A DNA stretch of 64,000 nt from contig OZ024741.1 in assembly GCA_964016885.1 (NCBI GenBank), positions 285,696,001 to 285,760,000 on the forward strand. Reading direction: 5' to 3'. Below the pieces are notes generated by a model. It was not told the origin of the DNA and made no database searches. It worked only from the letters and a program-made list of their open reading frames with translations. Positions within the stretch are counted from its first letter, which is position 1. Every line of letters starts with the position of its first letter. Origin of the DNA: Eledone cirrhosa (taxonomy: Eukaryota). Of this stretch, positions 38,899 through 39,815 are shown piece after piece. The translations under genes were made by a program, and so were the position numbers.

Positions 38899-39815
38899 AT
38901 GAAGACAAACATAGATTATTCGAAAATATTCTGTATGTTTATAATAAACATTTTGAAGACCTAATCGCTATAGAATAGAATACGTCACGTATTACAATTT
39001 GAGATTCTCGATAAAAGCAAGGGAAGTAACCTACGCGTTTCATTCTTGTTAGAAATCATCAGGATTACATATCCAATGCTTTTATCGAGAACGACACAGC
39101 TAGAGACTTATAGAATACTTAGCTGTGTACAGGAACTGGTTTGAAAGAGCGGTAGCCGGTCCGGCAGAAATTAGAATTTGGATTTAATGCTCTGAAATAG
39201 CGATATATATGTGAAGACAAACATAGAATATTCGAAAATATTCTGTATGTTTATAATAAACATTTTGAAGACCTAATCGCTATAGAATAGAATACGTCAC
39301 GTGTTACAATTTGATATTCTCGATAAAAGCAAGGGAAGTAACCTACGCGTTTCATTCTTGTTAGAAATCATCAGGATTACATATCCAATGCTTTTATCGA
39401 GAACGACACAGCTAGAGACTTATAGAATACTTAGCTGTGTACAGGAACTGGTTTGAAAGAGCGGTAGCCGGTCCGGCAGAAATTAGAATTTGGATTTAAT
39501 GCTCTGAAATAGCGATATATATGTGAAGACAAACATAGAATATTCGAAAATATTCTGTATGTTTATAATAAACATTTTGAAGACCTAATCGCTATAGAAT
39601 AGAATACGTCACGTATTACAATTTGAGATTCTCGATAAAAGCAAGGGAAGTAACCTACGCGTTTCATTCTTGTTAGAAATCATCAGGATTACATATCCAA
39701 TGCTTTTATAGCGATTAGGTCTTCAAAATGTTTATTATAAACATACAGAATATTTTCGAATATTCTATGTTTGTCTTCACATATATATCGCTATTTCAGA
39801 GCATTAAATCCAAAT
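38899..39815 (-). mobile_element. Retrozyme-like tandem array, 312-bp unit, about 2.6 copies plus inverted 5' arm; HHRs at 39026-39068, 39338-39380, 39650-39692
   Basis: GAAGACAAAC recurs at 38901, 39213 and 39525; 39707-39815 inverted; minus strand GTAATC-CTGATGA-TTTCT..AGAAT-GAAA-CGCG-TA-GGTTAC. Confidence 0.85.

What the first reader, a model, noticed from the sequence alone, without database searches (positions are those of the whole stretch)
38899..39815. Second, diverged retrozyme array carries the PLE insertion signature and structure-preserving changes
Seen: a 312-bp variant 19 kb away, inserted in (TA)n, with an inverted arm (39707-39815) at its 5' end exactly as in PLE2, PLE4 and 45441-46670. 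Stem I differs from the other array yet still pairs (GUAAUC/GGUUAC versus GUAGUC/GAUUAC), while the core, stem II and ACGCGU are invariant. The inverted arm ends at ..ATTTGGA, the same register where the 58-kb array meets (TA)n. Inference: independent RNA-mediated insertions driven by Penelope machinery, selection on the RNA fold, and a preferred priming point in the monomer.
Basis: partly seen in the sequence, partly recalled or inferred. Interest (0 to 1): 0.8.

Follow-up and report, generated by a model that had tools for sequence, protein, structure and literature searches.

The report
Retrozyme pasted by Hydra-type Penelope enzyme
This is one of over a thousand young insertions of a small non-coding repeat with a predicted self-cutting RNA motif; most copies examined sit in TA repeats as two back-to-back arms ending at two fixed points, and they share a small hairpin with Penelope-type jumping genes, which likely supply the enzyme that copies them from a probably circular RNA.

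Summary
Observation confirmed. 38899-39815 is one insertion of a 310/312-nt non-LTR retrozyme (type I hammerhead, minus strand). The 'inverted arm' is a second arm with its own 3' end, not a 5' inversion. Across 143 genomic insertion records, 105 are head-to-head pairs with one 'short' end (register 133-141) and one 'long' end (about 168), 1 is long/long, none short/short. Inner junctions are near-uniform, and both arms share a haplotype (4 of 1,010 sites differ, about 19% between loci). This matches the Penelope 'tail' and its two internal RT start sites (PMC11167929). The tail holds a RCU(C/A)...GAGY hairpin shared with six Penelope-type families here; one has Hydra-clade protein motifs. Selection on the fold is still supported by core avoidance and by compensatory pairs in 66%-identical relatives. 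Cleavage, circles and the partner enzyme are untested. The Penelope link was already proposed in print, and the scan has reported this family and its two-armed layout many times on other DNA.

The parts
38899..39709 (-). Short-end arm: 2.6 units of the 312-nt retrozyme (subfamily A); RNA-sense 3' end at register 133-141 (internal AUAUAUAU tract merging with target TA)
39710..39815 (+). Long-end arm: registers about 60-168 in RNA sense on the + strand, 3' end (..TCCAAAT) joined to (TA)n; 3-nt microhomology (TAT, 39707-39709) at the inner junction
39780..39815 (+). Tail: the 27-36 nt between the two end registers
39790..39803 (+). Tail hairpin GCTATTTCAGAGCA, invariant in subfamilies A, B, C, D; resembles the RCTC...GAGYRY hairpin of Penelope-type tails in this genome
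   Evidence: weak on its own: -1.5 kcal/mol
39650..39692 (-). Type I hammerhead motif, copy 1; predicted cut between 39656 and 39655
   Evidence: cleavage not tested
39338..39380 (-). Type I hammerhead motif, copy 2; predicted cut between 39344 and 39343
39026..39068 (-). Type I hammerhead motif, copy 3; predicted cut between 39032 and 39031
38708..38898 (.). Left target (TA)n tract
39816..39893 (.). Right target (TA)n tract, holding two 16-nt stubs of the long end of the 45441-type Penelope-like family
58050..60221 (-). Sister insertion: 7 units of the 310-nt subfamily B, long end at 58050, single retrozyme arm
60222..60759 (+). 3' fragment (short end) of an autonomous Hydra-type Penelope family, joined without TA to the inner end of the 58-kb array; co-insertion or an older neighbour

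Best explanation
38899-39815 is one insertion of a young non-coding hammerhead repeat (non-LTR retrozyme) laid out as two back-to-back arms in a TA microsatellite, likely written by the reverse transcriptase/GIY-YIG endonuclease of a Hydra-clade Penelope-like element that primes from both cut DNA strands on a probably circular RNA. Shown: two fixed outer registers about 27-35 nt apart, one per arm; near-uniform inner ends joined mostly by short microhomology; one haplotype in both arms; a tail hairpin shared with Penelope-type families of this genome. Inferred: the protein binds near the conserved hairpins just 3' of each start site; one target 3' end primes at about 168, the other at the internal AUAUAUAU tract (base pairing with TA is possible there); each cDNA runs past the ribozyme cut site for one to many units, stops at a variable point, and the two cDNA ends are joined by end-joining repair. 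Some long arrays were later expanded at DNA level.
For: Layout: 105 short/long pairs, 1 long/long, 0 short/short among 143 records; in the 51 records not picked by an end, 36 short/long against 1 long/long (p 6e-10), plus 4 with one odd end, 8 single-armed, 2 cut off. 1,526 exact short-end/TA junctions and 4,587 exact cores genome-wide, controls 0. Outer flank TA-like at 114 of 129 short and 114 of 119 long ends. Inner ends (n=232) near-uniform (chi-square p 0.21), 8 near the predicted cut against 11.9 expected; 67 of 116 junctions overlap by 1-7 nt; 160 of 202 arms exceed one unit. Arms differ at 4 of 1,010 polymorphic sites against 18-21% between loci. Poseidon protein cuts and extends both strands and starts at two internal RNA sites that bound the tail (PMC11167929); tail of 30-40 bp and inverted copy are PLE traits (PMC8557442). 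Tail hairpin in six Penelope-type families with G-C/A-U covariation of the closing pair, against 16 of 2,322 background tiles. The adjoining family has RWK, DKT, CxCX5C, CxxC and CxH motifs, the Hydra diagnostics. Older relatives C (66-68% identity) and D keep both ends and the hairpin. Array-wide single-locus changes are A>G in 8 of 17 against 15 of 226 single-unit changes (p 3e-5), as expected if an edited RNA was copied into every unit. Four runs of unrecorded type each assemble the unit as one 340-nt wrap-around contig with one haplotype, whereas a fifth gives 1,391 mixed contigs over a stretch holding the unit and the PLE end.
Against: No cleavage, circle or enzyme assay. A wrap-around contig also arises from a uniform multimer; library type is not on record, and the runs were ranked by sharing the query's words. 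Arm lengths are not coupled within subfamilies (rho 0.21 and 0.18, p 0.13 and 0.17), so nothing shows two enzymes moving together on one circle; two RNAs from one source fit as well. Autonomous, non-tandem PLE copies also have two arms with one haplotype, so that trait is not specific to circles. 25 variants are shared by several but not all units of a locus: unit numbers are partly post-insertion, or templates are sometimes heterogeneous multimers. In Poseidon the start site is not homologous to the target and ribozyme cleavage is dispensable in vitro. The hairpin pattern was drawn after seeing the sequences, the retrozyme version is shorter with an A.G opposition, and 1 of 5 other hammerhead-bearing ends also matched. 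No autonomous PLE with monomer-long homology was found in the loci held. Neptune and Naiad elements also favour (TA)n (for Naiad; Neptune recalled). Inner ends show a weak bias (Rayleigh p 0.035).
Confidence: 0.72

Rival explanations
1. Same Penelope-type two-end priming, but the template is a linear uncleaved multimeric transcript of an existing array (or two transcripts of one source array); circles, if any, are by-products.
For: Unprocessed RNA is the main substrate for Poseidon in vitro. Some variants recur in a subset of units, in both arms in 5 of 25 cases. Arm lengths are uncoupled.
Against: Array-wide single-locus A>G changes in all units are easier from one edited unit copied repeatedly. 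Classic twin priming on one linear RNA predicts the long arm's inner end at the short start register; 17 inner ends fall in the two end windows against 25 expected.
Confidence: 0.25
2. One priming event followed by fold-back: the second arm is a copy of the first cDNA, then resolved at a TA-like point.
For: Explains the shared haplotype directly; 50 of 100 loci fit long-first and 28 fit short-first length limits.
Against: 22 of 100 fit neither direction, and no single direction fits more than half. It does not explain why the long end is fixed in non-tandem PLEs. Both-strand extension is shown in vitro.
Confidence: 0.07
3. The repeat is a DNA-level satellite or the amplified pLTR stump of a Penelope element; the hammerhead is a passenger and the structure-preserving changes are editing or chance.
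For: A>G bias produces G.U pairs without selection. DNA-level expansion is visible in long arrays. Only 1 of 9 Xenopus retrozymes cleaved in vitro.
Against: Nearly every locus has its own junction. Inherited changes hit the core 0 of 30 times and break fewer pairs than private ones (p 0.0015 and 0.027). Double-sided changes in families C and D still pair in 9 of 13 (p 0.013) and 15 of 19 (0 of 20,000 permutations). No ORF adjoins family C copies as their body.
Confidence: 0.06

Closest known systems
Metazoan non-LTR retrozymes (Cervera and de la Pena 2020, PMC7229834; keyword passages read)
   Same: About 300-nt AT-rich tandem units, one type I hammerhead per unit, no ORF, strongly self-paired; PLEs named as strong candidate mobiliser.
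   Different: The main text has 0 hits for 'inverted', 'microsatellite' or 'cephalopod' and describes TSDs; two-armed insertions with two fixed ends are not described there. Supplements not read.
Li, Clavereau and Pollet 2026 preprint (10.64898/2026.07.22.740005; parts 1-3 of 5 read, through Discussion)
   Same: Argues that animal retrozymes are non-autonomous PLE derivatives.
   Different: Evidence is co-occurrence and pLTR homology in Xenopus; no insertion anatomy; favours local tandem amplification of a pLTR; notes invertebrates were not examined for the relationship. Supplements closed.
Poseidon of Anolis carolinensis (Frangieh et al. 2024, PMC11167929; parts 1-2 of 4 read)
   Same: Both strands cut and extended, two internal RT start sites bounding the tail, AT-rich target, hammerhead upstream of the start sites.
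   Different: Autonomous element, linear template, start site not homologous to target, no strand preference of start site seen in vitro; here one arm takes each site almost without exception.
Hydra clade PLEs (Craig et al. 2021, PMC8557442; section 11 and passages read)
   Same: (TA)n targets, canonical hammerheads, tail and inverted copy; the candidate partner carries the Hydra protein motifs.
   Different: The retrozyme encodes nothing and has a short tail (about 30 nt against about 80-90 nt in the PLE families here).

Membership tests
Non-LTR retrozyme | Tandem units of about 150-450 bp, low GC, no ORF | tested here: met
   310/312-nt units; no ORF of 150 aa or more overlaps them
Non-LTR retrozyme | One type I hammerhead motif per unit | tested here: met
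   Core and stems I-III by pattern; no Rfam hit at gathering score
Non-LTR retrozyme | Dispersed, independent genomic insertions | tested here: met
Non-LTR retrozyme | Highly self-paired unit | tested here: met
   z -4.67; circular MFE -68.3 against -48.4 +/- 4.5 in shuffles
Non-LTR retrozyme | Self-cleavage | not testable with these tools
   needs in vitro transcription
Non-LTR retrozyme | Accumulates as circular RNA | tested here: inconclusive
   Wrap-around 340-nt contigs in 4 of 5 runs laid, library type not on record
Non-LTR retrozyme | TSD longer than 4 bp when present | tested here: inconclusive
   One clear 9-12 bp duplication in a non-TA target (L070); the rest are unreadable in TA repeats
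Penelope-like insertion (non-autonomous) | Inverted, 5'-truncated partner arm | tested here: met
Penelope-like insertion (non-autonomous) | 30-40 bp tail at one end only | tested here: met
   27-35 nt offset, one long and one short end
Penelope-like insertion (non-autonomous) | Sequence homology of the unit to the pLTR of an autonomous element | tested here: inconclusive
   Only the tail hairpin is shared; no unit-long match in the loci held; the genome's PLE families were not surveyed
Autonomous PLE | RT plus GIY-YIG ORF | tested here: not met
   The repeat is non-coding
Hydra clade (candidate partner at 60222-60759) | RWK, DKT, CxCX5C linker, CxxC and CxH around the EN, (TA)n target, hammerhead | tested here: met
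Hydra clade (candidate partner at 60222-60759) | RT phylogeny inside Hydra | not tested
   no reference set at hand

The most novel reading that the evidence does not exclude
A Hydra-clade Penelope enzyme, recruited by a miniature copy of its own tail hairpin, performs double-ended rolling-circle reverse transcription of a self-cleaved, ligated and A-to-I-edited 310-nt RNA circle, one enzyme from each cut target strand, and can occasionally load its own mRNA on one side and the circle on the other (the 58050-60759 chimera). The hairpin would then be a portable signal that makes any small RNA circle insertable.
Probability: 0.3. Interest if true: 0.82.

Novelty: new variant of a known kind. Interest (0 to 1): 0.55.

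Why it matters
Which enzyme moves animal retrozymes, and whether RNA circles are the templates, has been proposed since 2020 but shown only by co-occurrence and homology in the papers read. This family gives a direct genomic footprint (two start sites, one per target strand), a named candidate partner clade and a 14-nt candidate recognition hairpin, so an in vitro test like the Poseidon assay can be designed now. The strict one-long, one-short rule also constrains how all endonuclease-bearing PLEs integrate. The scan has already reported the two-armed layout of this same family, so this locus adds to that case and does not open it.

Tried and rejected
Rfam: no hit. DNA search with the 58-kb unit returned nothing (the tool skips very common words), replaced by pattern searches. 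Sequencing runs: no RNA holder listed; lack of PLE cover in four runs is not used as evidence. Stem I 'covariation' between the two arrays rejected as compensatory change. Segmental duplication rejected: no shared non-TA flank between the two arrays, unique junctions. 5'-inversion by L1-type twin priming on one linear RNA rejected (inner ends not at the short register). Fold-back mostly rejected. Coupled arm lengths: overall rho 0.38 vanished within subfamilies. Chimera at 58050-60759: obeys the long+short rule with a 2-nt microhomology, but the PLE arm has 4 private changes in 535 nt against 0 substitutions in 2,172 nt of array (p 0.0015), and no second such case with this PLE was found among the other retrozyme loci held; rated about 30%. 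TSD search mostly uninformative. The long-end pattern (143 hits) misses the commonest B-type end and is no copy number. Pfam on 12 window frames found no PLE family. Paper searches: retrozyme+Penelope, Penelope-like+twin priming, PLE mechanism, hammerhead+octopus+retrotranspos, Penelope+tail+pLTR+inverted+both strands+circular RNA; in the listings and the four papers opened none described this layout for retrozymes. Supplements were not seen and could bear on that.

Full report
Observation. The 312-bp array (2.6 copies, 38891-39709), the inverted arm (39704-39815), the TA flanks and the three minus-strand hammerhead motifs are as described. I number the unit from the first base after the predicted cut. 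On that scale the main arm ends at 133-141 (ambiguous, because the unit's own ATATATAT merges with the target) and the inverted arm, which is RNA-sense on the + strand, ends at 168; the 58-kb array ends at the equivalent 167. So both outer ends are 3' ends and the two 5' ends meet inside.

Genome-wide anatomy. The genome holds 4,587 exact 31-nt cores and 1,526 exact short-end/TA junctions, controls 0. I examined 143 insertion records: 38 from 36 stretches around best hits to the A unit (one search scored 39 of 465 candidates), 11 from the first 100 core hits on contig C1, 72 picked by a short end, 20 by a long end, and the 2 window arrays; one record repeats a neighbour and one locus is locally duplicated. 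105 are short/long pairs, 1 is long/long (L032, a palindrome that includes its flanks, so probably secondary), none is short/short. In the 51 records not picked by an end: 36 short/long, 1 long/long, 4 with one odd end, 8 single-armed, 2 cut off (p 6e-10 for 36 of 37). Inner ends are near-uniform (n=232; chi-square p 0.21, Rayleigh p 0.035), not enriched at the predicted cut (8 against 11.9), and 67 of 116 junctions overlap by 1-7 nt. 114 of 115 junction pairs are distinct. The short arm is longer in 47 loci, the long arm in 54; 160 of 202 arms exceed one unit.

Comparison with Penelope-like elements. Craig et al. list an inverted 5'-truncated copy and a 30-40 bp tail at one end as PLE traits. 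Frangieh et al. show that a Poseidon protein cuts and extends both strands and starts at two internal RNA sites that bound the tail. The retrozyme offset is 27-35 nt. PLE-type families in this window and in fetched loci show the same short and long ends. A few bases 3' of the short end, six of them carry RCTC-N9-17-GAGYRY with the closing pair G-C in three and A-U in three; the retrozyme carries GCTA-TTTCA-GAGCAY. The pattern starts in the first 16 nt of 16 of 2,322 background tiles, but it was drawn after the fact and 1 of 5 other hammerhead-bearing ends also matched. The family adjoining the 58-kb array encodes RT and endonuclease with RWK, DKT, CxCX5C, CxxC and CxH motifs, the Hydra diagnostics. 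An earlier scan note (e1-8674329) says Hydra ends stop short of one of two hairpins; here the long end lies 4-11 nt before a second conserved hairpin, GC(C/U)(G/U)GACCGGC, in A, B, C and D (alignment).

Template. Both arms of a locus share the family haplotype: 4 of 455 (A) and 0 of 555 (B) comparisons differ, against 20.6% and 18.2% between loci. Fold-back cannot give 22 of 100 loci in either direction. Changes fixed in all units of a single locus are A>G in 8 of 17 cases, against 15 of 226 single-unit changes (p 3e-5). That is what copying one A-to-I-edited unit many times would give; the lead came from note e1-8806368, and heavy editing in cephalopods, like the guess that this is a cephalopod, is recalled and comes from no call of mine. 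Four public runs give the unit as a single 340-nt contig (310 + 30) that wraps around, each with one haplotype, two of them minor genomic types; a fifth gives 1,391 contigs over a stretch holding one unit and the PLE end, with those variants at 21-25%, close to their 22-24% among B loci. Library types are not on record and a uniform multimer gives the same contig, so this is only suggestive. Against a simple one-circle picture: arm lengths are uncoupled within subfamilies, 25 variants occur in subsets of units, and non-tandem PLE arms also share haplotypes.

Selection on the fold. The two stem I differences are on different pairs and single-sided; the all-Watson-Crick form exists, and each window variant is one A>G step from it. 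They are weak evidence. Stronger: of 30 inherited changes 0 hit the core, 8 keep and 5 break a predicted pair, against 15, 44 and 106 of 255 private changes (p 0.0015 for core plus break; p 0.027 among paired; positions 2 and 289 are scored as breaks only because the MFE register differs from the hammerhead fold, so this is conservative; the A>G bias works the other way). Two older relatives turned up in flanks: family C (about 316 nt, 66-68% identical, copies about 90% alike) and D (one locus, degenerate core). They keep both end classes and the tail hairpin. Pairs changed on both sides still pair in 9 of 13 (C, p 0.013) and 15 of 19 (D, 0 of 20,000 permutations), although 23-25 other pairs break and C and D are not independent.

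The 58-kb locus. Its inner end joins, without TA, a 535-nt short-end fragment of the Hydra-type family, which obeys the long+short rule. But that fragment has 4 private changes while the array has no substitution and equals a haplotype found in 17 other loci (p 0.0015). An insertion beside an older copy with loss of its other arm is more likely; co-insertion about 30%.

Mechanism and verdict. Most likely a Hydra-type PLE protein cuts both strands of a TA tract and primes one cDNA from each, at about 168 and at the internal AU tract, on the retrozyme RNA (circle more likely than multimer), and repair joins the two cDNA ends. Layout, registers, haplotypes and hairpin are shown; enzyme, cleavage, circle and editing are inferred. 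It is a non-LTR retrozyme by every sequence test I could run. The PLE link is in print as a proposal; the two-armed footprint was not in the four papers opened or evident in five search listings, supplements unseen. The scan has reported this family and layout repeatedly. Interest 0.55.

Noticed in passing
window 37850-39900: A train of Penelope-type insertions in one TA region: two-armed copies at 37893-38358 and 38420-38710, the retrozyme, and two 16-nt long-end stubs at 39825-39893.
   Followed up: partly
window 309-2530, 5313-7123, 9576-11723, 13384-14526: Four broken Penelope-like ORF sets; the first three show DKT-type and CxCX5C motifs like the Hydra-type family. 56095-57003 (minus) is a different PLE type (DKS, FYGLRK). 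Pfam hit none of them. The first family gave 84,280 first-look candidates in the genome.
   Followed up: partly
window 61177-61770; L036, L049, L050, L088, L104, L225: Another hammerhead family with stem II almost identical to the retrozyme's (TTTCTAAAGAAT), short and long ends about 65 nt apart; ORF unknown.
   Followed up: partly
L083:6400-6850, L107-L136, L120:2330-3083: Older retrozyme relatives C (about 316 nt; 2,634 first-look candidates) and D (317 nt, degenerate hammerhead core) with the same two ends.
   Followed up: yes
L193, L073, L174, L216: Foreign pieces of 114-272 nt lie between or inside arms, and L216's inner end runs into other sequence; those in L193 and L216 read like LINE endonuclease coding sequence (recognised by eye, not searched), suggesting template jumps or patch repair with other RNAs.
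   Followed up: no
L034, L062, L098: A (CAT)n-tailed repeat sits at or inside retrozyme ends; in L062 it interrupts the unit at the short-end AT tract.
   Followed up: no
L056, L072, L199: Arrays of 18-23 units carry variants shared by non-adjacent units, a sign of later DNA-level expansion or conversion.
   Followed up: partly
L032: Perfect palindrome including flanks, long/long ends; secondary duplication or assembly artefact.
   Followed up: no
window 16304-20419: 4.1-kb degenerate TA array with a 2.5-kb inverted self-match.
   Followed up: no
window 50488-51198: LINE-type RT fragment (RVT_1, E 2e-5).
   Followed up: no
runs X1-X6: Runs under five different coded organism labels hold 96-100% of the unit's words; host range not examined.
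   Followed up: no
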